Shown: one piece after another, positions 12,915-29,921 of the stretch
Numbering within the stretch: the first letter of the stretch is position 1
Layout of the letters: the number at the start of each line of letters is the position of its first letter
Made by a program: the position numbers and the translations under genes
DNA from: a virus
DNA length: 64,000 bases
IMG/VR virus record: IMGVR_UViG_3300006947_000003
Coordinates: 58,451 to 122,450 of that record
Strand: one strand, 5' to 3'
The notes under the pieces: model-generated
The model's database searches: none
Told to the model about the DNA's origin: nothing
Seen by the model: only the letters and a program-made list of their open reading frames with translations

Positions 12915-14330
12915 ATGAGACCGTACCACTTACTAGTACCATCGGATCGTGTCGCCCTGAGTGATAAAAATACCAAATTAACTTACAACGAATTTATTAA
13001 AGAAATACACAGGATTAATACCTGGTATAAAGAACAAGGATATCATGCTGGGCACAGAATTAGTGTAGTAGGTATTAACTCTGTTCAAACTTATTTGTAC
13101 CTTTTCGCCGCGGCATTAGATATGTGTGCTACAACATTGCCATGGGGTGATGATTTGAAACAAGCATATAAAAACGGCGAAGAAGGTGACTGGAAATTTA
13201 GGTTAGACGCTAACAAATCTAATGCTATTGTTTATGTTAACCTAGATGGTACTGTTGATTTAGAACATTTACATTATGAAAAAAGTACAGTTCTTGACAA
13301 AGAAATAATGCTTTACTATAGCAGTGGAACAAGTCACCCGTACGGTTGGACTAAAAGTTATCCAGTACCTTATGAACTAGATGAAAATAATTATGGCACT
13401 AGCCAAGATGTTACACATTATTATAGAGAACGTGGAAACAAATGGTATGGTAATCCAGAAACAAACAGAACAATTAATTCTATGGGTCCTTATATAGGTT
13501 GGGGACAAGAAGTTACATTTACAACAATAGCAAAAGGTGGGCATTGTCATCTTATATACGAACAAGAAGAATATGCCGAAGCGGCTAAATGGGTTAAGCC
13601 TACATGGTTGGCAGGGTTTCCACTAGCATGGCAAAAAGTAATCGACAAAGGTGACAACGGTGGACACAGCATTGAGGTATTTGAGTATAGTGGTGCCGCA
13701 CTTATCGATGGACAAAAAGAAGAATTTGAAAACTTCTTTGGGCATAGTAATTGGATATGTGGTTACGGTGATGCCGCAACTGGTATGACACTTGTTAACT
13801 ATTCAAATAATTTTGATACAATTGGTAAGCCAATTGATTGTCTTGTAAACTCTGGTGCTGAATATCGATTATCAAAAGAAAATAGTACTATTGAATTTAG
13901 AGGTCCAATGACACCGGATGGTGATTGGTGGGACACGGGCGATATTGCTGAAATAAATGAAGACGGTAACTGGATATTAAAAGGTAGAGCAAATGAACTT
14001 ATTATTGTAAGAGGTGGCGGTAAAGTATATCCGTTTGAAGTTGAGCATATGATTTCACAGCATCCAGGTGTTAAAGAAATTTATGTTTATCCACAACCTG
14101 ATGAGAATTTACATTTTGTACCGGCTTGTATATACAACGGCGATGTTTCGCCTGAAGATTTACAAGAATGGTGTAAAGATAAAATACAAACATTTAAGCA
14201 ACCTGTAAAATATACAAGGCTAGTAAGCACCGTAGCAATATTACGTCAGGCAACATGTATTCCTAAAGTAAGTAGAGTAAATATACATAACACATTAATA
14301 GATAACCCGGATTGGATTAAAGATGAGTAG
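12915..14330 (+). CDS. Adenylate-forming (AMP-binding, acyl-CoA synthetase/ANL family) enzyme
   Basis: YSSGTS (A3-like), GYG (A5), WDTGDI (A7), KGRANELIIVRGGGKVYPFEVE (A8), PKVSR (A10-like Lys). Confidence 0.8.
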   Translation: MRPYHLLVPSDRVALSDKNTKLTYNEFIKEIHRINTWYKEQGYHAGHRISVVGINSVQTYLYLFAAALDMCATTLPWGDDLKQAYKNGEEGDWKFRLDANKSNAIVYVNLDGTVDLEHLHYEKSTVLDKEIMLYYSSGTSHPYGWTKSYPVPYELDENNYGTSQDVTHYYRERGNKWYGNPETNRTINSMGPYIGWGQEVTFTTIAKGGHCHLIYEQEEYAEAAKWVKPTWLAGFPLAWQKVIDKGDNGGHSIEVFEYSGAALIDGQKEEFENFFGHSNWICGYGDAATGMTLVNYSNNFDTIGKPIDCLVNSGAEYRLSKENSTIEFRGPMTPDGDWWDTGDIAEINEDGNWILKGRANELIIVRGGGKVYPFEVEHMISQHPGVKEIYVYPQPDENLHFVPACIYNGDVSPEDLQEWCKDKIQTFKQPVKYTRLVSTVAILRQATCIPKVSRVNIHNTLIDNPDWIKDE

Positions 14331-14934
14331 CCTTAATAAAAATTTAAGTGATAGTTATAATAATGGTTTCGACAACAAACAAGAACAAAGAAAACTTTAT
14401 GATCATTGGGAAACATATACCCAAGATATATGCGATGAAGCAGGCTGGCTAGGACCAGTTAAAACAGCTAGATATGTAGTAGAAAATTATATTATTAAGT
14501 CTGTAGAAATTGCTGACTTAGGTTGTGGCCCTGGGCCAGTTGGCGAGATTCTTAAAGGTGCGGGCTACGTTAATGTAGATGGGTACGACTTAACAGAACA
14601 CTTTGTAAGTAAAGCAAAACAGTTTTATAGAGATGCTACAGTTATAGATATTACACAAGAATTGTTTCCTAAAAAATACGATATTATTATAGCAAGTGGT
14701 GTTTTTACCAAAGGACATTTAAGTTCGGCACCTGCTGAAAACATTGCTAACAGTTTAAAAGAAAATGGTATGTTAGTTATAACAACGCCCGATATGGATA
14801 ACTACAACTATATGGAAGAAGCAGGCTGGAACGAACAGCAATTCTTAACTGAGGTTAAACGTATCGGTCCTTGGCCCAGTTTAGTTACAACACATCAACA
14901 CTATCATTCCTTGAGGATATTTAAGGCAACATGA
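14323..14934 (+). CDS. Class I SAM-dependent methyltransferase
   Basis: IADLGCGPG motif I, VDGYDL motif II, YDIIIASGVFTKGHL. Confidence 0.85.
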   Translation: MSSLNKNLSDSYNNGFDNKQEQRKLYDHWETYTQDICDEAGWLGPVKTARYVVENYIIKSVEIADLGCGPGPVGEILKGAGYVNVDGYDLTEHFVSKAKQFYRDATVIDITQELFPKKYDIIIASGVFTKGHLSSAPAENIANSLKENGMLVITTPDMDNYNYMEEAGWNEQQFLTEVKRIGPWPSLVTTHQHYHSLRIFKAT

Positions 14935-16787
14935 AAAACGTTTATCTAGCAAATTTTAGTATGACAATAAACCCGGGCAATCATAAATTCTTGCCTTATA
15001 GTGTTGCTGGGTTGTGGAGTTATGCTGAGCAAGATGAACAAATTAAAAACGATTATAAACTAGCAGGTCTTTATTACGAAAAGAAAGACATGGATACAAT
15101 AGTAGATGAACTAGTAGATCCGTTTATATTTGGATTTAGTGTTTATATTTGGAATGAAAACTATACAAATGAATTAGCAGAAAAAATTAAAACACGCTGG
15201 CCAGAGTGTATGATTATTTACGGCGGTCCTCAAGTTCCACAGGACAGCAAACACGAATGGTGGAATGGTCACAAGTATGTAGATGTTGTTGTGTTTCAAG
15301 AAGGTGAAGAAATATTTAGAAATATATTACTAAACCCTAGCAAGGAATATATTGATACTCAGCCCAATACTGCTGTTAATTTTGGCACACATTGGAAAAA
15401 TAATGTTGCGGGTAATAAAAGAAAAACAAGACAACGTGATTTAAGTAAATTACCAAGTCCTTATTTGTCAGGCAATATGCCTAAAATAAAACCACACCAT
15501 GCTATGCTTTTTGAAACAAACAGAGGATGTCCTTATGCTTGTTCATTTTGTGATTGGGGCGGACTTACTTACAGTAAATTAGTTAATCATGATATTAATA
15601 GACTAGAAGCAGAAATAGAATACGCTGGTAAAAATAAAATTGGCTTTTTATATAGTGTTGATGCTAACTTTGGTATTTTAAAAGATCGAGATAGTGCTAT
15701 TGCTGATATGATTATTGCCACAAAAAAGAAATATGGCTATCCTAAAACTTTCTTTGTTAACTGGGCAAAAAATGCCAATGAAGAAATTTTAATAATAGCA
15801 AAGAAAATGTTTGATGCTGGACTTATTAAAAGTTTTATTATGAGTTTACAAACACTAACACCATTAGCATTAGAACTTATAAAGCGTGATAACATGGATA
15901 GTAACGACTACGAATTCTTTGCTAAACGTTGTGCTGAATTAGGTTTGCCATTTGACTGTGAACTTATTGTTGGTAACCCTGGTGAAACTGTAGACAGTTG
16001 GAAAGATACTTACATAGAAATTACAAACTACCAAGAACTAACAACATACTTGTATCCTTTAGCATTATTACCTAATGCTGAATTAGGCAGTACAGCAAGT
16101 CGAGAAGAATTTGGATTTAAAACTATCCGTAGGCCTTTTCCTGGAGTACTAAATGAGGAAACAAAAGAAGATATAGAACTTGTAGTTTCCACAAAGTGGT
16201 TATCTGAAGATGACTTAAAACACATTTGGGAATGGACATGGACTACTAGAACAGGGCATGAATTTAATTTTTTACGTGATGCCGCAGATTATTTAGATAG
16301 AAAAAAAATTGTATCTAAGAAACAATTTTATGATGATTGGTATTTGTTTGTTATTAATGGTAACGGGTTAATTAAAAGACATTTTGAAAAAGCAAAAGGA
16401 AGAATTGACGAATATATATTTGGATTAGCAAGTCAAAGTTTAGGTTACAGAGAAAACTTAACAGAAAAACGAGATGAGTTTTATGCCGAAGCAAGGACTT
16501 TCCTTGAACAGTACAGCATAGATAAAGACATCTTAACTGAACTTATTAAGTATTGTGATGCTAGGCTATTTGACTATGATGCTAATTATCCTATTACTAA
16601 AACATTTAACTACGACTTTATACATGATGTAAAAAGGAAAACAACAATAGAATTTACACCAACACTAAATGGTGCTACTACTACAACTGCTCATTTACTT
16701 TTAGAAGGAAGTGATAGAGTTAGTGACAACTTTAAAATAAGGCAGACATTAACATGTACTCTGAACGATCCAAAGATAATTTTGTAG
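14931..16787 (+). CDS. Cobalamin (B12)-binding radical SAM enzyme
   Basis: N-terminal LPYSVAGL / GFSVYIWN / IIYGGPQV / QEGEE; ETNRGCPYACSFCDW; DANFG; IVGNPGET. Confidence 0.88.
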   Translation: MKNVYLANFSMTINPGNHKFLPYSVAGLWSYAEQDEQIKNDYKLAGLYYEKKDMDTIVDELVDPFIFGFSVYIWNENYTNELAEKIKTRWPECMIIYGGPQVPQDSKHEWWNGHKYVDVVVFQEGEEIFRNILLNPSKEYIDTQPNTAVNFGTHWKNNVAGNKRKTRQRDLSKLPSPYLSGNMPKIKPHHAMLFETNRGCPYACSFCDWGGLTYSKLVNHDINRLEAEIEYAGKNKIGFLYSVDANFGILKDRDSAIADMIIATKKKYGYPKTFFVNWAKNANEEILIIAKKMFDAGLIKSFIMSLQTLTPLALELIKRDNMDSNDYEFFAKRCAELGLPFDCELIVGNPGETVDSWKDTYIEITNYQELTTYLYPLALLPNAELGSTASREEFGFKTIRRPFPGVLNEETKEDIELVVSTKWLSEDDLKHIWEWTWTTRTGHEFNFLRDAADYLDRKKIVSKKQFYDDWYLFVINGNGLIKRHFEKAKGRIDEYIFGLASQSLGYRENLTEKRDEFYAEARTFLEQYSIDKDILTELIKYCDARLFDYDANYPITKTFNYDFIHDVKRKTTIEFTPTLNGATTTTAHLLLEGSDRVSDNFKIRQTLTCTLNDPKIIL

Positions 16788-17409: not shown

Positions 17410-17589
17410 ATGTCAACATTACACGACCAAATAACAGAAGCATATGTAAACTATATTGCAGAAGCAGAAAAGTTTGATACTAAAGGAAATAAAGCCGCGG
17501 CGACTAGAGCTCGTAAAGCACTAGGAGATTTATCTAAGCTAGGTAAGTCACGTAGAGCCGAAATACAAGAAAAAAAGAACGCTATGTAA
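17410..17589 (+). CDS. Small basic histone H1-like (Hc1-family) DNA-binding protein, 59 aa
   Basis: Below the ORF-track cutoff. MSTLHDQITEAYVNYIAEAEKFDTKGNKAAATRARKALGDLSKLGKSRRAEIQEKKNAM with AAGGAG RBS; GNKAAxxRARKA motif. Confidence 0.75.
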   Translation: MSTLHDQITEAYVNYIAEAEKFDTKGNKAAATRARKALGDLSKLGKSRRAEIQEKKNAM

Positions 17590-17628: not shown

Positions 17629-18141
17629 ATGCCAAGCCCACAAAAAGCAAAAGGATCAGGTTGGGAACGAGATGTCGCAAGATTCTTGTCCGGACTATAC
17701 GGTGAAACGTTTATAAGAGCACCTGGTTCTGGTGCTTATGTGGGTGGGGTTAATAAAGCAAGAAAAGAATATTTACACGAAGGCCAAATCAGAGCTTTCA
17801 AAGGAGACATTGTACCTGGACAAAGTTTTCCTAAACTAAATGTAGAATGTAAGTTTTATAAGCAATTCTCATTTCACAGACTGTTACGACCTGAACCACT
17901 TCCTCAATTAGAAGAATGGATATCACAACTTATGGATGTAGCAGATCCGGACGATTTCAATATGTTAATAATGAAATTCAATCAAGTAGGCAAATACATC
18001 GCTATAGAATCAAAATACAAATCAAAATCAAAAAATTACATAGACTATTGGTCAAACACTACAGGTTCAAACTGGCGTATATCAGACTTTGAAGAATTTT
18101 TCACAAGAAATTCAGATTTAGTTAAAACGCTTTGTGCCTAG
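17629..18141 (+). CDS. Holliday-junction-resolvase-like PD-(D/E)XK nuclease
   Basis: KAKGSGWERDVA...RAPGSGA...GDIV...NVECK pattern of Hjc-type resolvases. Confidence 0.75.
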   Translation: MPSPQKAKGSGWERDVARFLSGLYGETFIRAPGSGAYVGGVNKARKEYLHEGQIRAFKGDIVPGQSFPKLNVECKFYKQFSFHRLLRPEPLPQLEEWISQLMDVADPDDFNMLIMKFNQVGKYIAIESKYKSKSKNYIDYWSNTTGSNWRISDFEEFFTRNSDLVKTLCA

Positions 18142-18154
18142 CATAATATACTAT

Positions 18155-18206
18155 TAACAACAACTTTTAATCGCAACTCTTAACCGCAACTCTTAACCGC
18201 AACCAA
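18155..18206 (+). repeat. Four degenerate 13-bp tandem repeats (consensus TAACCGCAACTCT)
   Basis: Units taacaacaacttt / taatcgcaactct / taaccgcaactct / taaccgcaaccaa read directly. Confidence 0.85.
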
Positions 18207-18209
18207 ATA

Positions 18210-18620
18210 GCTACCTCGAAATCATGCCCTTGAGGGCATACGACATCGTATGTTCGGAATCTGGGTTGTAGCAAGTAAAGGCATTTACTTCAAGTGCTAA
18301 AAGATAGAGGCTCTGTGAAACAGATACAACCTCAACAATTGATATGTTGGATATCTCGGTATATCAAATGTTCCGTGACTAATGTGAAGCTGAAGTAGGG
18401 GGTTAGCGGGTCGCCGCCTCCGATAGTAGAAATACTAAATCTTCTTATGATATGATGGGTGAGTTACTCGAATGATGAACAATCCTTACTTTGCCCCTAG
18501 CGGGTGAAGTATGGGCAAAATATCTGAATGATAAACTAACTGTATTCCATTAATTAAAAAAAAAATGTTTTGAACGACAGTGATAAAACTTATCAACGGA
18601 GTTGATAACATTACAATACT
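18210..18620 (+). ncRNA. Candidate large structured non-coding RNA (family not recognised; boundaries and strand approximate)
   Basis: ORF-free gap of 567 nt with raised GC and at least 8 hairpins, including TAGTA-GAAA-TACTA, GCGG-GTCG-CCGC and TACTTTGCCC-CTAGC-GGGTGAAGTA (G-U pairs fit the + strand). Confidence 0.5.
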
Positions 18621-18708
18621 TTATTGTTATTATGTTTCTGAAAGCTCTGATAAAAATAGTTTGCTAACATATTCTTATTGATTCCATTAATAATACTAAG
18701 TGTATCTA

Positions 18709-18927
18709 TTACATTAGTGGAAGTTTTGAGCTCTCAGTATTTTTGATATTTTGTTTGATTATTTCGTGTATTTGTTCACGTTCAGATGGTGATAGTGCCA
18801 TAGCTTCGGTATACGATATGCCACCTCGCATATACCAAGTTGTCTCCAACAAATCTTTTTGTAAGGCTTTTGACTCATTGTCAAAACTTTGGAGTAATTT
18901 GACAATGTTGTCATTGTCTAGTGCCAA
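18709..18927 (-). CDS. Small baseplate/tail assembly protein; probable -1 frameshift extension of the upstream gene
   Basis: WYMRGGISYTEAMALSPSERE motif; only a TTG start with no clear RBS; frame is open back through a TTTTTTC site. Confidence 0.6.
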   Translation of the reverse strand: MALDNDNIVKLLQSFDNESKALQKDLLETTWYMRGGISYTEAMALSPSEREQIHEIIKQNIKNTESSKLPLM

Positions 18928-18932
18928 AAGCC

Positions 18933-19859
18933 TTATCCGAAAAAAGTTGAGTTGTCAATAGTAAACGGTTGCGACCATTTCTCCCCACAAGGGGTATTGA
19001 CACCTTCTAAATCAGTAGCACCATCACACTCGAATTGAATAGGTTTGATGGTTGATTGATTCTTATTCTCTTCTAAATGTTCTTTAATACTATTGTATAT
19101 ACTTCGATCACAGTTTGCTACAAATTCTTTTAGTTGTTGCCGATCAGTAACAACTGTGCTGTCTGGCAATTCGATTTTAAGAATTGCCTCTGATAAAATA
19201 CCAACTGAATATACAGTTAATCTAACAAACGCATCTTGAAACTTGTCAATACGATCTTGTTCAGTCATGCCGTCGTCAGTAGCAATACCTTGTATTAGTC
19301 GTTGCTGTTCAAAGTTCTTAATAGCTTCTTTAGTAACTGCTTCGTATGTTAATGGTTGAAAGTATATCTTTAAATCACTAACATTAATTAATGGCTTATA
19401 TGATGGTACTGTAACCCTCTCTATAATAGTTTTAAGATCTAGTTCAAACTCGTTTTCTTCGCTACATTTAGGACACACACCTTTAAGTGTTGTTGTTTCG
19501 CCATATGTAGCAATTCTAATACTAACAAGAATCATGTCAACATCTAATGCACAGACTTTCCAGGCATTTTTAATTCCTGGAATACAACTTTGAATAACTT
19601 CAACAGTAGTAGCACCGTTCATTAATGCGTCTGGTGTTCTCATTAGAATTTCGTCTTTAGCTGTCATTGGATAAACAGCCAATTCTCCGTTAACTGGAAT
19701 TTCAATTTCATCCGGTGTATTAAATTCACCTTTGCTTGGCAATGAAATATAAAGTGCCGGTCTACGAAAATATGCTTGTAATGGATTAACCGGTGTTTCC
19801 GGTTTTGTTACCTTAGTTGCCATTTCTGGAACTTTATTATTTGTTTCTATAGTACTCAT
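18933..19859 (-). CDS. gp26: Baseplate hub assembly chaperone (gp26/gp51-like)
   Basis: NPLQAYFRRPALYISLPSKG, PMTAKDEI..TPDALMNG, IRIATYG, CPKC. Start moved to ATG 19859 (GGAGG RBS). Confidence 0.7.
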   Translation of the reverse strand: MSTIETNNKVPEMATKVTKPETPVNPLQAYFRRPALYISLPSKGEFNTPDEIEIPVNGELAVYPMTAKDEILMRTPDALMNGATTVEVIQSCIPGIKNAWKVCALDVDMILVSIRIATYGETTTLKGVCPKCSEENEFELDLKTIIERVTVPSYKPLINVSDLKIYFQPLTYEAVTKEAIKNFEQQRLIQGIATDDGMTEQDRIDKFQDAFVRLTVYSVGILSEAILKIELPDSTVVTDRQQLKEFVANCDRSIYNSIKEHLEENKNQSTIKPIQFECDGATDLEGVNTPCGEKWSQPFTIDNSTFFG

Positions 19860-19937
19860 GAATTTTCCTCCGCTAAATACAATATAATAGTAGTTAGTCA
19901 TATTATTTATATGAGTATATAATGGTGAAATGAAAAC

Positions 19938-29460: not shown

Positions 29461-29535
29461 TCGTAAATCGTGCTACAATAGGTGTAGACTTATGCGGAAT
29501 TGACCCACCGCGTATTACATAGAACGTAACTTAGG
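29461..29535 (+). promoter_or_regulatory. Structured 5' leader (three hairpins) upstream of the MGRP gene
   Basis: CTACA/TGTAG, TATGCGG/CCGCGTA and TTAC/GTAA stems between ATAAATA (29448-29454) and the AGGAG RBS. Confidence 0.5.
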
Positions 29536-29543
29536 AGAAAAAA

Positions 29544-29921
29544 ATGGGACGTCCAGTAAATAAAAGTAAATTTGGTGAAGTAGATTCTGATTCAGGCAAC
29601 ATCACAGTTAACTGTAAAGTTAGCTCAAATGCGGCTTCAGTTCAGGGTATGATTAAATCACAAAGATCATCTACAAAATTCAATGTTGATGATGCAAAAG
29701 ATGATTCAGGTAACGAAGGTGTTTGTTCACTAGTTGATAAAGCATCTGAGCAATTAGCGGCAGATGAAATGTCTATTTCTGCTGTAATTAACGGTACTAC
29801 AACTTATAAAAATATTAAAAAGTTGTTTAACAGAACGTGTACTGATTATGATAATGTACGATACACATGGTCCATATCAGATGACTCTGCTGTTAATGTT
29901 ATGACGATTGTTGCTATCTAA
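29544..29921 (+). CDS. Hypothetical virion protein (MGRPVNKSKFG N-terminus)
   Basis: Strong RBS, late promoter, followed by a terminator. Confidence 0.55.
   Translation: MGRPVNKSKFGEVDSDSGNITVNCKVSSNAASVQGMIKSQRSSTKFNVDDAKDDSGNEGVCSLVDKASEQLAADEMSISAVINGTTTYKNIKKLFNRTCTDYDNVRYTWSISDDSAVNVMTIVAI

What the first reader, a model, noticed from the sequence alone, without database searches (positions are those of the whole stretch)
18210..18620. Candidate undescribed large structured ncRNA in the biggest intergenic gap
Seen: the only long ORF-free stretch in a gene-dense window, between convergent genes. Stems: ATGCCC/GGGCAT (18224-18239) overlapping CATACGA/TCGTATG (18237-18252); AAGTAAA/TTTACTT (18273-18290); long-range GGGTTGTA/TACAACCT (18263-18270 with 18325-18332); TCTG/CAGA (18312-18324); TTGATAT/ATATCAA (18339-18367); GCGG/CCGC (18406-18417); TAGTA-GAAA-TACTA (18424-18437); TACTTTGCCC/GGGTGAAGTA with an alternative partner GGGCAAA; TTATCAAC/GTTGATAA (18590-18608). 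G-U pairs and a GNRA loop favour a + strand RNA, and two pairs of mutually exclusive stems suggest switching. I do not recognise tRNA, tmRNA, RNase P or group I/II intron cores. Inference: a novel phage RNA such as a scaffold, ribozyme or replication primer.
Basis: partly seen in the sequence, partly recalled or inferred. Interest (0 to 1): 0.78.

Follow-up and report, generated by a model that had tools for sequence, protein, structure and literature searches.

The report
Twin-box pseudoknotted RNA of jumbo phages
The gene-free gap holds a real, intricately folded non-coding RNA of about 400 bases that is shared by hundreds of uncultured giant T4-like phages, and it carries one 7-letter word twice for a purpose still unknown.

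Summary
Window 18206-18612 (+) encodes a large structured non-coding RNA.

- **Conservation:** I collected 141 distinct homologues from IMG/VR phage contigs. Nine helices show compensatory changes, two of them pseudoknots. One example is helix A, 18375-79/18410-14, which is fully paired in 131 of 141 sequences against about 29 with shuffled partners.
- **Folding energy:** it is not significant on its own (z = -1.57).
- **Rfam:** nothing matches this window, even at E <= 10. In a sister branch the front domain of the same RNA is the orphan motif Polynucleobacter-1 (RF01718), so catalogues hold only a fragment of the family.
- **Twin boxes:** the oddest feature is two 7-nt boxes, N N A U R A W, at 18470-76 and 18526-32. 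Their letters changed at least 56 times across the family, yet the first letter is identical in both copies in 141 of 141 RNAs. I found no complementary partner in cis.
- **Function:** unknown. My best guess is a scaffold that presents two identical words to one reader, or to each other.
- **Linkage and relatives:** the RNA travels with the baseplate-hub gene, not with the nuclease gene. Diverged copies occur in the cultured phages XaC1 and UE-S1.

This scan has already found the family on other DNA (46 notes).

The parts
18206..18612 (+). Whole RNA gene as inferred: the conserved structured core 18206-18540 plus two conserved 3' hairpins.
   Evidence: nhmmer and CM homology in 141 distinct sequences. 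A metatranscriptome contig covers 18146-18540 at 100% identity. The ends were not mapped.
18210..18272 (+). 5' domain. P1 is 18210-14/18268-72 and encloses two hairpins, GCCC-UUGA-GGGC at 18226-37 and CAUACGA/UCGUAUG at 18237-52. It corresponds in layout to the 3' half of Rfam Polynucleobacter-1.
   Evidence: P1 changes from GCTAC/GTAGC to GGTAC/GTACC in L003 and L002. The layout was compared with the RF01718 consensus printed. No Rfam hit here.
18307..18333 (+). P2 hairpin (18307-10/18330-33) with the conserved loop CUCUGUGAAAAAGAUACAA, preceded by the conserved AAAAGA.
   Evidence: 98.7% of cells are paired, 3 of 4 pairs have changes on both sides, and there are 4 pair types.
18335..18371 (+). 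P3 hairpin (18335-46/18360-71). Its apical loop supplies one strand of pseudoknot D.
   Evidence: All 7 pairs predicted by RNAalifold have compensatory changes. In one search all 12 pairs vary on both sides, but the MAFFT register is poor (57.6% paired).
18375..18414 (+). Pseudoknot helix A: GUGAC at 18375-79 pairs with GUCGC at 18410-14, which lies inside the loop of helix B.
   Evidence: 5 of 5 pairs in 131 of 141 sequences and 4 of 5 in the other 10. There are 15 distinct 3' strands. With shuffled partners the mean is 29 and the maximum 43.
18392..18444 (+). Helix C (18392-95/18441-44) encloses helix B (GGGGG 18398-402 / CCUCC 18417-21) and a variable hairpin at 18424-37.
   Evidence: Helix B is 92-94% paired, with G-C to A-U exchange. 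All 4 pairs of helix C have changes on both sides.
18351..18355 (+). Pseudoknot D, 5' strand (AUAUC in the P3 loop). It pairs with 18449-53.
   Evidence: The longest complementary run between the P3 loop and the linker is at least 6 bp in 72% of 141 sequences, against 30% with shuffled partners; 0 of 50 shuffles reach the observed mean. Many different sequence pairs occur.
18449..18453 (+). Pseudoknot D, 3' strand (GAUAU), just upstream of module 1.
18455..18478 (+). Module 1: RUGR, a short hairpin, CUC, then twin box 1.
   Evidence: Alignment. 18455 and 18458 co-vary by identity with 18511 and 18514.
18470..18476 (+). Twin box 1, GAAUGAU (general form N N A U R A W).
18487..18511 (+). Hairpin H between the boxes (core 18489-96/18502-09).
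   Evidence: 97.7% paired in the CM alignment, with 4 of 8 pairs compensatory.
18511..18534 (+). Module 2: RUGR, a loop, UCU, then twin box 2.
18526..18532 (+). Twin box 2, GAAUGAU, identical to box 1.
   Evidence: Concordance with box 1 per letter: 141/141, 0.99, 0.99, 1.00, 0.99, 1.00, 0.95. The flanks CUC and UCU are invariant and differ from each other.
18567..18589 (+). 3' hairpin: stem GUUUU/AAAAC around the conserved loop GAGCGNNAGCGA (here GAACGACAGUGA).
   Evidence: The stem sequence differs between relatives while staying complementary (read by eye in the alignment). RNAalifold did not predict it.
18590..18608 (+). Terminal hairpin UUAUCAAC-GGA-GUUGAUAA between the convergent genes; a likely terminator without a U tract.
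   Evidence: 7 pairs, each with 2-5 standard pair types, in 37 distinct sequences. The consensus terminator scan found nothing.
17629..18141 (+). Upstream gene: PDDEXK_15 / RusA-like resolvase-type nuclease.
   Evidence: Pfam PF24608, E = 2.8e-23; phrog_244. It is linked to the RNA in only 7 of 80 loci fetched through it.
18709..18927 (-). Conserved 72-aa ORF downstream of the hub gene, convergent with the RNA.
   Evidence: tblastn finds it in 117 of 140 RNA-bearing loci. No Pfam or PHROG family.
18933..19901 (-). gp26-like baseplate hub gene, the conserved neighbour.
   Evidence: PF12322, E = 2.2e-12; phrog_150. The RNA is present in 64 of 80 hub-fetched loci and lies on the opposite strand in all 64.

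Best explanation
Window 18206-18612 (+) is a stand-alone gene for a large non-coding RNA with two pseudoknots. It belongs to a big family ('twin-box RNA') carried by T4-related jumbo phages, and it sits convergent to the baseplate-hub operon.

**Shown**
- The RNA is conserved well beyond its protein neighbours.
- It folds into a core of helices P1-P3, A, B, C and D. A and D are pseudoknots.
- Two similar hairpin modules flank a GC-rich hairpin. Each module ends in the same 7-nt word, N N A U R A W.

**Inferred (function)**
The knotted core acts as a rigid scaffold that displays the two identical words side by side. The two words are then read together. My odds for how:
- about 35%: one phage-specific reader binds both words, either a dimeric protein or a nucleic acid. 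This resembles lambda-type phages, which keep the same boxB in nutL and nutR (recalled).
- about 25%: the two words touch each other directly, like with like.
- about 5%: they serve as donor and acceptor sites for a template jump.
- the rest: unknown.

The confidence figure below is for the identity claim (a real RNA gene of this family, function not known), not for any one mechanism.
For: **Conservation**
- nhmmer with the window's 461 nt found 73 hits among 160 neighbour-fetched loci, including phages whose hub protein is only 36-41% identical.
All 119 of 119 are full-length homologues, E = 1e-64 to 1e-29.
- In total 177 full-length copies, 141 of them distinct.

**Structure**
- RNAalifold on 26 sequences: 15 of 19 pairs have compensatory changes.
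- Named structure on 141 sequences: covariation score 0.251 against 0.142, 0 of 500 shuffles reach it, and register 0 beats all slid registers.
- CM alignment of 100 sequences: 89.0% of cells paired against 79.4%, 0 of 500 shuffles.
- Helix A fully paired in 131 of 141 against a mean of 29 with shuffled partners.
- Pseudoknot D.

**Strand**
- G-U 303 cells against A-C 86 cells.

**Twin boxes**
- The strongest mutual-information signals in the whole alignment are identity pairs 56 nt apart.
- Concordance is 141/141 at N1, 0.99 at N2 and R, and 0.95 at W, where 0.51-0.61 is expected by chance. The edges are sharp.
- There are 18 box types and at least 56 parsimony changes. N1 flips about 30 times in each copy.

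**Presence in an RNA library and genomic context**
- One marine metatranscriptome contig spans exactly 18146-18540 with 0 differences.
- A 99%-complete 345-kb relative carries exactly one copy.
Against: - Folding energy is not significant (z = -1.57).
- Transcription rests on one low-depth contig (depth 3.5) from an RNA library that may contain DNA. Three other runs cover the flanking genes but not the RNA, and X1 and X2 look like one data set filed twice.
- The ends, the promoter and the terminator are not mapped. Consensus promoter hits are at chance level and there are no terminator hits.

- No complementary word lies in cis within 2.5 kb.
- None in the 122 kb held of the own genome, apart from the boxes themselves.
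- No enrichment in a 99%-complete relative: 45 sites, two of them the boxes themselves, against 31 control sites.
- No column of the three conserved neighbour proteins tracks the box letters. The top MI for N1 is 0.24-0.48 bit, against a label entropy of 0.79-0.99 bit.
- A three-way co-change (two boxes plus a reader), repeated dozens of times, is hard to credit. This is an inference.
Confidence: 0.85

Rival explanations
1. The two boxes contact each other directly in parallel, each letter pairing with its twin (G with G, A with A, C with C, U with U). On this view the identity rule is a structural covariation between two sites, and no outside reader is needed.
For: - Covariation is between positions of the same index, not mirror-image positions.
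- It is as frequent as ordinary two-sided compensations (about 30 flips at N1).
- All four like-with-like combinations occur.
- No third partner was found.
Against: - To my recollection, no natural RNA is known to hold a 7-nt parallel like-with-like helix.
- Purine and pyrimidine homo-pairs are not the same size, yet N2 swaps G for C and W swaps U for A.
- The spacing between the boxes varies from 44 to 67 nt, which is tolerable but not suggestive.
- Nothing here tests three-dimensional contacts.
Confidence: 0.2
2. It is a DNA-level element such as a replication origin with iterons, a packaging signal or a pair of promoters. On this view the two boxes are repeated protein-binding sites in DNA, and the 'RNA helices' are incidental.
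For: - It lies between convergent genes.
- It has direct repeats that stay identical, as iterons do (recalled).
- The boxes resemble -10 hexamers (xATRAT), and the RUGAC at the start of most modules resembles a -35 element.
Against: - Nine helices keep pairing through changes on both sides, and G-U outnumbers A-C 3.5 to 1, which is strand-specific and RNA-like.
- Two pseudoknots are present.
- The -35-like to -10-like spacing is only 10-13 nt.
- The box word is not enriched elsewhere in the window: 9 sites against 9.05 expected.
- A contig from an RNA library covers it.
Confidence: 0.05
3. It is a cis-acting 3' untranslated region, terminator or regulator of the upstream nuclease gene, and not an independent RNA.
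For: - It is on the same strand and begins 65 nt after the nuclease stop codon.
- The RNA-library contig starts at 18146, right after that stop.
- Weinberg et al. 2010 list Polynucleobacter-1 as possibly cis-regulatory (table entry seen).
Against: - Only 7 of 80 loci fetched through the nuclease have the RNA, whereas 64 of 80 fetched through the hub gene do.
- Only 14 of 140 RNA loci have this nuclease nearby.
- In cultured relatives the upstream gene is a different, unrelated nuclease, and extra copies sit elsewhere in the genome.
Confidence: 0.08
4. The boxes are donor and acceptor sites for a polymerase that copies the RNA and jumps from box 1 back to box 2. This would make tandem repeats of about 50-60 nt, as the DRT2 reverse transcriptase or telomerase do with repeated template ends (recalled).
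For: - The rule is identity, not complementarity.
- Identity is strictest at the 5' end of the box (N1, 141/141), weakens at the 3' end (W, 0.95) and stops abruptly at N1. That pattern is expected if the 3' end of the copy must re-anneal.
Against: - No RVT_1 reverse transcriptase is found in the 122 kb held of the own record or in a 99%-complete 345-kb relative.
- No skipped or repeated joints appear in the four runs laid, but those are contigs and only one of them covers the site.
- A strong hairpin lies inside the would-be template.
Confidence: 0.05
5. It is a diverged member of a well-known RNA class that the searches missed, such as RNase P RNA, tmRNA, a group I intron, 6S RNA, GOLLD or ROOL.
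For: - Its size and pseudoknots are of the right order.
- A stretch at 18370-86 loosely recalls the group I 'R' element (recalled resemblance only).
Against: - cmscan against 4227 Rfam families finds nothing in 18000-19000 or 18130-18330 at E <= 10, and nothing family-wide except RF01718.
- ARAGORN finds no tRNA or tmRNA.
- The helix order A5'-C5'-B5'-A3'-B3'-C3' does not fit the group I P3-P7 order.
- There are no flanking exons.
Confidence: 0.03

Closest known systems
Polynucleobacter-1 RNA motif (Rfam RF01718; Weinberg et al. 2010, Genome Biol 11:R31, PMC2864571). I saw only its table entry; the supplements are closed.
   Same: - In 4 of 15 family loci scanned, the 141-position model matches the front of the same RNA at 88-117 bits, directly upstream of and overlapping my core alignment.
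- Its 3' half is a long-range helix around a CC-UUAA-GG hairpin and a second hairpin. That has the same layout as window 18210-18272.
- It is an orphan motif of unknown function from freshwater and estuary data.
   Different: - The window scores nothing against RF01718, even at E <= 10, and lacks the model's 5' half. The CAGGGAYGGAA signature is present in 34 of 141 sequences and absent here.
- The Rfam model covers about a third of the RNA. It misses P2, P3, both pseudoknots, the twin boxes and the 3' hairpins.
- It was listed under Burkholderiales. Here, all 8 true hits in 'bacterial' assemblies are MAG contigs, and 7 of the 8 carry phage hub, small-ORF, portal or Hc1-like genes next to the RNA.
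Large ornate RNAs of unknown function linked to phages (GOLLD, ROOL). Recalled; both are in Rfam.
   Same: Hundreds of nucleotides long, with many helices and pseudoknots, phage-borne, with no known function and found by comparative genomics.
   Different: - No Rfam match.
- Smaller.
- A fixed position opposite the baseplate-hub operon.
- Twin boxes that co-vary by identity, which I do not recall for those RNAs.
nutL/nutR boxB sites of lambdoid phages, read by the N protein (recalled).
   Same: Two RNA sites per phage carry the same short sequence. The sequence differs between related phages and is read by one phage-specific factor.
   Different: - Here both sites lie 44-67 nt apart inside one structured RNA.
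- No reader is known.
- No neighbour protein co-varies with the boxes.
- The words change far more often.
Template RNAs with repeated ends: the telomerase RNA template and the DRT2 ncRNA (recalled).
   Same: A short sequence is repeated in direct orientation at both ends of a segment. Identity matters, not complementarity.
   Different: - No reverse transcriptase gene was found.
- No product was seen.
- A conserved hairpin sits inside the segment.
Kink-turn / box C-D type modules (recalled consensus RUGAUGA and CUGA).
   Same: In each module, AUGAUGA-like and RUGA strands flank a short stem. 18458 co-varies weakly with N2 as A-G or G-C.
   Different: - The G expected at the first sheared pair is A in 50 of 141 RNAs.
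- No canonical stem forms on the other side.
- No L7Ae-type protein was looked for.
- Membership is untested.

Membership tests
Rfam RF01718 Polynucleobacter-1 | The covariance model reaches the gathering score of 37 bits. | tested here: not met
   There is no hit in the window at gathering level or at E <= 10 on 18000-19000 and 18130-18330. Sister-branch loci L018, L012, L037 and L203 score 88-117 bits.
Rfam RF01718 Polynucleobacter-1 | The 5' half of the model: two hairpins including the ...CAGGGAUGGAA... signature. | tested here: not met
   A regex finds the signature upstream of 34 of 141 family RNAs, and the window is not among them. Window 18142-18205 instead holds a 13-nt tandem repeat.
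Rfam RF01718 Polynucleobacter-1 | The 3' half of the model: a long-range helix enclosing a CC-UUAA-GG hairpin and a second hairpin. | tested here: inconclusive
   The window has the same layout: P1 18210-14/18268-72, GCCC-UUGA-GGGC, and CAUACGA/UCGUAUG. P1 shows one compensatory change among the 5 close relatives. I compared it by eye with the consensus printed.
Twin-box RNA family (uncatalogued; defined here and in earlier notes of this scan) | Pseudoknot core CC-GNNNN ... NNNNC-CGCYUCYG, with helix B around the 3' strand of helix A. | tested here: met
   Window: GUGAC/GUCGC and GGGGG/CCUCC. Family: 131 of 141 fully paired; helix B 92-94% paired.
Twin-box RNA family (uncatalogued; defined here and in earlier notes of this scan) | Two identical 7-nt boxes after CUC and UCU, flanking a GC-rich hairpin. 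| tested here: met
   GAAUGAU at 18470-76 and 18526-32, with hairpin H at 18487-18511.
Twin-box RNA family (uncatalogued; defined here and in earlier notes of this scan) | Position convergent to the baseplate-hub gene and the small ORF. | tested here: met
   True in the window. The RNA is in 64 of 80 hub-fetched loci, on the opposite strand in all 64. The small ORF is in 117 of 140 RNA loci and the hub gene in 111 of 140.
Twin-box RNA family (uncatalogued; defined here and in earlier notes of this scan) | A significant score against a family model. | tested here: met
   Model R1 gives 117.9 bits, but the window is one of its 35 seed sequences, so the match is partly by construction. Independent support: the window as an nhmmer query finds the family.
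tRNA / tmRNA | Cloverleaf or tRNA-like domain with a tag reading frame. | tested here: not met
   ARAGORN finds 0 genes in the window. No Rfam hit.
Group I intron, RNase P RNA, 6S RNA, GOLLD, ROOL and the other 4227 Rfam families | A covariance-model match. | tested here: not met
   cmscan at E <= 10 returns nothing for 18000-19000.
Translational bypass element of the T4 gene 60 type | An open reading frame running into a take-off codon that is matched by a landing codon. | tested here: not met
   There is no ORF longer than 41 aa across the region. The RUG-to-URA spacing is 21, 22 or 23 nt in different relatives, and many copies have in-frame stops. Identity spans 7 nt, not 3.
DRT2-like or telomerase-like template RNA | A partner reverse transcriptase. 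| tested here: not met
   There is no PF00078 match in the own record (34% complete) or in a 99%-complete relative. A host enzyme or another polymerase is not excluded.
Kink-turn / box C-D module | Tandem sheared G-A pairs next to a 3-nt bulge, bound by an L7Ae-type protein. | not testable with these tools
   Only a sequence resemblance was noted. No three-dimensional or protein test was possible.

The most novel reading that the evidence does not exclude
The two 7-nt boxes are not read by anything outside the RNA. On this reading they are coupled to each other by an identity rule, in one of two ways. They might form a parallel, like-with-like base-paired helix, a structural principle not known in natural RNAs. 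Or they might be the take-off and landing sites of a template jump that turns the inter-box segment into tandem repeats. Either way, this jumbo-phage RNA would reveal a new way in which RNA sequence is constrained.
Probability: 0.2. Interest if true: 0.9.

Novelty: new variant of a known kind. Interest (0 to 1): 0.7.

Why it matters
- **Size and spread.** This is one of the larger and more intricate RNA folds seen in phages, at about 400 nt with two pseudoknots. It is present once per genome in a 99%-complete relative, and it occurs in hundreds of uncultured giant T4-like phages from marine and other aquatic metagenome records.
- **Gap in the catalogues.** Catalogues hold only a 141-nt fragment of one branch, filed as a bacterial motif.
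- **An unusual constraint.** The twin boxes give a clean case of two sites kept identical through dozens of changes, with no visible complement. Ordinary base-pairing covariation methods are blind to this kind of constraint.
- **It can be tested.** Diverged copies in the cultured phages Xanthomonas phage XaC1 and Escherichia phage UE-S1 (genus Asteriusvirus) make the function testable by ordinary phage genetics.

Tried and rejected
**Identity of the element**
- Rfam found nothing for the window or for four cultured-phage loci.
- blastn of the gap and of two relatives against 50,697 phage records gave no match.
- Folding energy as evidence was rejected as uninformative.
- The mini-ORF or leader-peptide reading of each module (RUG ... 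URA) was rejected. In the window both modules read ATG + 5 codons + TGA, but relatives have spacings of 21, 22 or 23 nt and in-frame TAA/TAG.
- The gene 60-type hop was rejected for the same reasons, and because there is no upstream ORF.

**Searches for something that reads the boxes**
- Antiparallel pairing of box 1 with box 2, worked out by hand, gives no helix.
- Cis complement of the boxes: exact 7-mers within 2.5 kb show no consistent site.
- With G-U allowed there are 119 sites in 82 of 141 RNAs, about what chance predicts. The clusters at -120 and +120 are constant U-rich strands of other helices that do not co-vary.
- Own-genome complement: none apart from the boxes themselves.
- Box word in the window: 9 sites against 9.05 expected. 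The longer pattern gives 8 against 7.96.
- Complement in a 99%-complete relative: 45 sites against 31 control sites, so no clear excess.
- Co-variation of the box letters with the small ORF, the hub protein or the Hc1-like protein: nothing beyond shared ancestry.
- A first, wide-window test of pseudoknot D did not discriminate (7.2 against 6.8). The narrower test did.

**Cultured phages**
- nhmmer gave only one weak hit (UE-S1, E = 0.018).
- Model R1 matches the syntenic gaps of XaC1 and UE-S1 at only 24.3 and 19.0 bits.
- Over whole records, non-syntenic places score as well.
- Reading those places showed that they are further diverged copies with the same core and twin CGUCAA boxes: 3 in XaC1 and 3 in UE-S1.
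- PA5oct gave no hit, and the two weak Atu_ph07 hits (E = 0.49 and 0.85) were not convincing; the one I read shows no core motif.
- The four ncRNAs reported for PA5oct lie elsewhere in its genome (passages of PMC7318152).

**Cellular genomes**
Only 8 are homologues, all on MAG contigs; 7 of the 8 carry phage genes next to the RNA, and the eighth (L335) showed no neighbour-gene match on its 1.2-kb locus. I draw no host from bin names.

**Sequencing runs**
- X1, X2 and X4 have contigs on the flanking genes but none on the RNA. No joints were seen in any run. Because these are contigs, this says nothing about absence.

**Literature**
- 'Polynucleobacter-1' occurs in one paper only.
- 'jumbo phage' + 'structured RNA' + 'covariation' together: 0 papers.
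Full report
**Setting.** The window is the right-hand 64 kb of a 122,450-bp IMG/VR virus record that is estimated to be 34% complete. Its genes are those of a T4-related jumbo phage. It has a T4-type portal (PF07230, E = 2e-106), which is 49-50% identical to the portals of Agrobacterium phage Atu_ph07 and Pseudomonas phage PA5oct. The finding lies between two genes:
- a PDDEXK_15 / RusA-like nuclease gene at 17629-18141 (+), and
- a gp26-like baseplate-hub gene at 18933-19901 (-).

The right part of the gap, 18709-18927 (-), is a 72-aa ORF that is conserved in relatives. The ORF-free part is therefore 18142-18708.

**Checking the observation.** As a single sequence, however, the region does not fold better than chance. 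The + strand gives z = -1.57, with 6 of 100 shuffles folding as well, and the - strand gives z = -0.89. Rfam reports only a freshwater-2 motif elsewhere in the window (29472-29546) and nothing in 18000-19000 at E <= 10. ARAGORN finds no tRNA or tmRNA.

**Relatives.**
- I fetched 80 loci through the hub protein and 80 through the nuclease.
- The window's 461 nt found 73 nhmmer hits among them. These include phages whose hub protein is only 36-41% identical, while the DNA of the gap is about 70% identical.
All 119 of 119 proved to be full-length homologues.
- This gave 177 full-length copies, 141 of them distinct.
- No cultured phage matched by blastn.

**Structure.** RNAalifold on 26 sequences predicted 19 pairs, 15 of them with compensatory changes. 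From alignments and mutual information I derived this model, in window coordinates:

| Element | Coordinates |
|---|---|
| P1 | 18210-14 / 18268-72 |
| P2 | 18307-10 / 18330-33 |
| P3 | 18335-46 / 18360-71 |
| Helix C | 18392-95 / 18441-44 |
| Helix B | 18398-402 / 18417-21 |
| Pseudoknot A | 18375-79, paired with 18410-14 inside the loop of B |
| Pseudoknot D | 18351-55 (P3 loop), paired with 18449-53 |
| Hairpin H | 18489-96 / 18502-09 |
| 3' hairpins | 18567-89 and 18590-608 |

- Counted on 141 sequences, the covariation score is 0.251 against 0.142 for shuffles. None of 500 shuffles reaches it, and register 0 beats all slid registers.
- On a model-fitted alignment of 100 sequences, 89.0% of cells pair against 79.4%, again with 0 of 500 shuffles. 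That alignment leans towards the structure by construction.
- Helix A is fully paired in 131 of 141 sequences with 15 different 3' strands. With shuffled partners the mean is 29.
- For pseudoknot D, a run of at least 6 bp occurs in 72% of sequences against 30% in controls.
- The terminal hairpin has 7 covarying pairs.
- G-U cells outnumber A-C cells 303 to 86, which fixes the + strand.

The alternative pairing of TTTGCCC with GGGCAAA also fails. So the switching idea has no support.

**The twin boxes.** The strongest mutual-information signals in the whole alignment are not complementary pairs. They are identity pairs 56 nt apart. Anchored on the invariant CUC and UCU, the shared word is exactly 7 nt, N N A U R A W. 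In the window it is GAAUGAU at 18470-76 and 18526-32.

| Position | Concordance between the two copies |
|---|---|
| N1 | 141 of 141 |
| N2 | 0.99 |
| R | 0.99 |
| W | 0.95 |
| Next position (+7) | 0.35, which is chance level |

- By chance, 0.51-0.61 would be expected at the variable positions.
- The three letters before each box are invariant but differ between the copies, CUC against UCU, which argues against simple gene conversion.
- There are 18 box types. On a tree built without the box columns, the word changed at least 56 times, and N1 alone changed about 30 times in each copy.
- The spacing between the boxes varies from 44 to 67 nt.

I found no partner for the boxes:
- no cis complement;
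- none in the 122 kb held of the own genome;
- no excess in a 99%-complete relative;
- no neighbour-protein column that follows the box letters;
- no reverse transcriptase gene.

**What it travels with.** The RNA is found in 64 of 80 hub-fetched loci, always on the strand opposite to the hub gene. It is found in only 7 of 80 nuclease-fetched loci. The 72-aa ORF accompanies it in 117 of 140 loci. So the 'resolvase-RNA' pairing in this window is local gene order and not a partnership.

**Relation to known families.**
- In 4 of 15 family loci scanned, the 141-position Polynucleobacter-1 model matches the front of the same RNA at 88-117 bits.
- The window's branch lacks the model's 5' half and scores nothing.
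- The only paper holding the name lists it in a table as a candidate RNA from Burkholderiales and freshwater or estuary data.
- In 'bacterial' assemblies, 8 of the 120 pattern hits returned are true homologues. All are MAG contigs, and 7 of the 8 carry phage hub, small-ORF, portal or Hc1-like genes.

**Cultured relatives.**
- My model of the 3' domain (R1) hits the syntenic gaps of Xanthomonas phage XaC1 and Escherichia phage UE-S1 (genus Asteriusvirus) only weakly, at 24.3 and 19.0 bits.
- Whole-record searches gave equally good hits elsewhere in those genomes.
- Reading those places showed at least three diverged copies per genome. Each has the CCGUUG...GCAAC-CCGCUUCCG-type core and twin CGUCAA boxes around a GC hairpin.
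- PA5oct gave no hit and Atu_ph07 nothing convincing.
- PA5oct's four published ncRNAs lie elsewhere in its genome.
- A 99%-complete 345-kb member of the uncultured branch has exactly one copy. A 100%-complete 367-kb relative has none detectable at E <= 0.1.

**Transcription.** Of the four marine metatranscriptome runs laid, one holds a 395-nt contig covering exactly 18146-18540 with no differences, at depth 3.5. The others cover only the flanking genes, and two of them look like the same data filed twice. This shows presence in an RNA library. It gives no strand, ends or level, and DNA carry-over is possible.

**Verdict.**
- The finding is real and interesting, but this scan has met the family many times before (46 notes).
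- The RNA's identity as a structured, pseudoknotted phage RNA is well supported. Its function is unknown.
- I favour a scaffold that presents two identical words. I leave open whether a phage-specific reader binds both words or whether the two words are coupled to each other.
- The frequency of concerted changes makes a direct two-site coupling a serious possibility.

Noticed in passing
window 29472-29546 (+): A freshwater-2 RNA motif (Rfam RF02980, 55.4 bits against a gathering score of 49.9) overlaps by three bases the start of the ORF at 29544-29921. It is the only Rfam hit in the window.
   Followed up: no
window 18172-18203 (+): A 13-nt unit (CGCAACTCTTAAC) is repeated about 2.4 times in tandem between the nuclease stop codon and the start of the RNA. 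It is not conserved in the close relatives.
   Followed up: partly
window 18709-18957 (-): The conserved 72-aa ORF after the hub gene has only a TTG start, and its frame is closed just upstream. Another first-reader note proposes a -1 frameshift from the hub gene. The ORF accompanies the RNA in 117 of 140 loci and has no Pfam or PHROG family.
   Followed up: partly
window 17410-17589 (+): A 59-aa protein matches the chlamydial histone H1-like family Hc1 (PF07432, E = 2e-13). A homologue lies near the RNA in 41 of 140 loci.
   Followed up: partly
window 12915-16787 (+): There is a cluster of an AMP-binding enzyme (12915-14330) and a B12-binding radical SAM protein (14931-16787) inside a phage structural and replication region.
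   Followed up: no
L413, L416, L419 (Xanthomonas phage XaC1); L414, L417, L420 (Escherichia phage UE-S1): Each of these cultured jumbo phages holds at least three diverged copies of the RNA's 3' domain at widely separated places in the genome. All copies carry the same twin CGUCAA boxes.
   Followed up: partly
L348 and L366 (two contigs of one MAG labelled Haliscomenobacter), L335 (MAG labelled Polynucleobacter): Jumbo-phage-type contigs of 148 kb and 183 kb (L348, L366), carrying hub, small-ORF and (L348) portal genes, sit inside bacterial metagenome bins. L335, on a 9.2-kb contig, carries the RNA but gave no neighbour-gene match. Such binning may be how the Rfam motif got its bacterial label.
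   Followed up: partly
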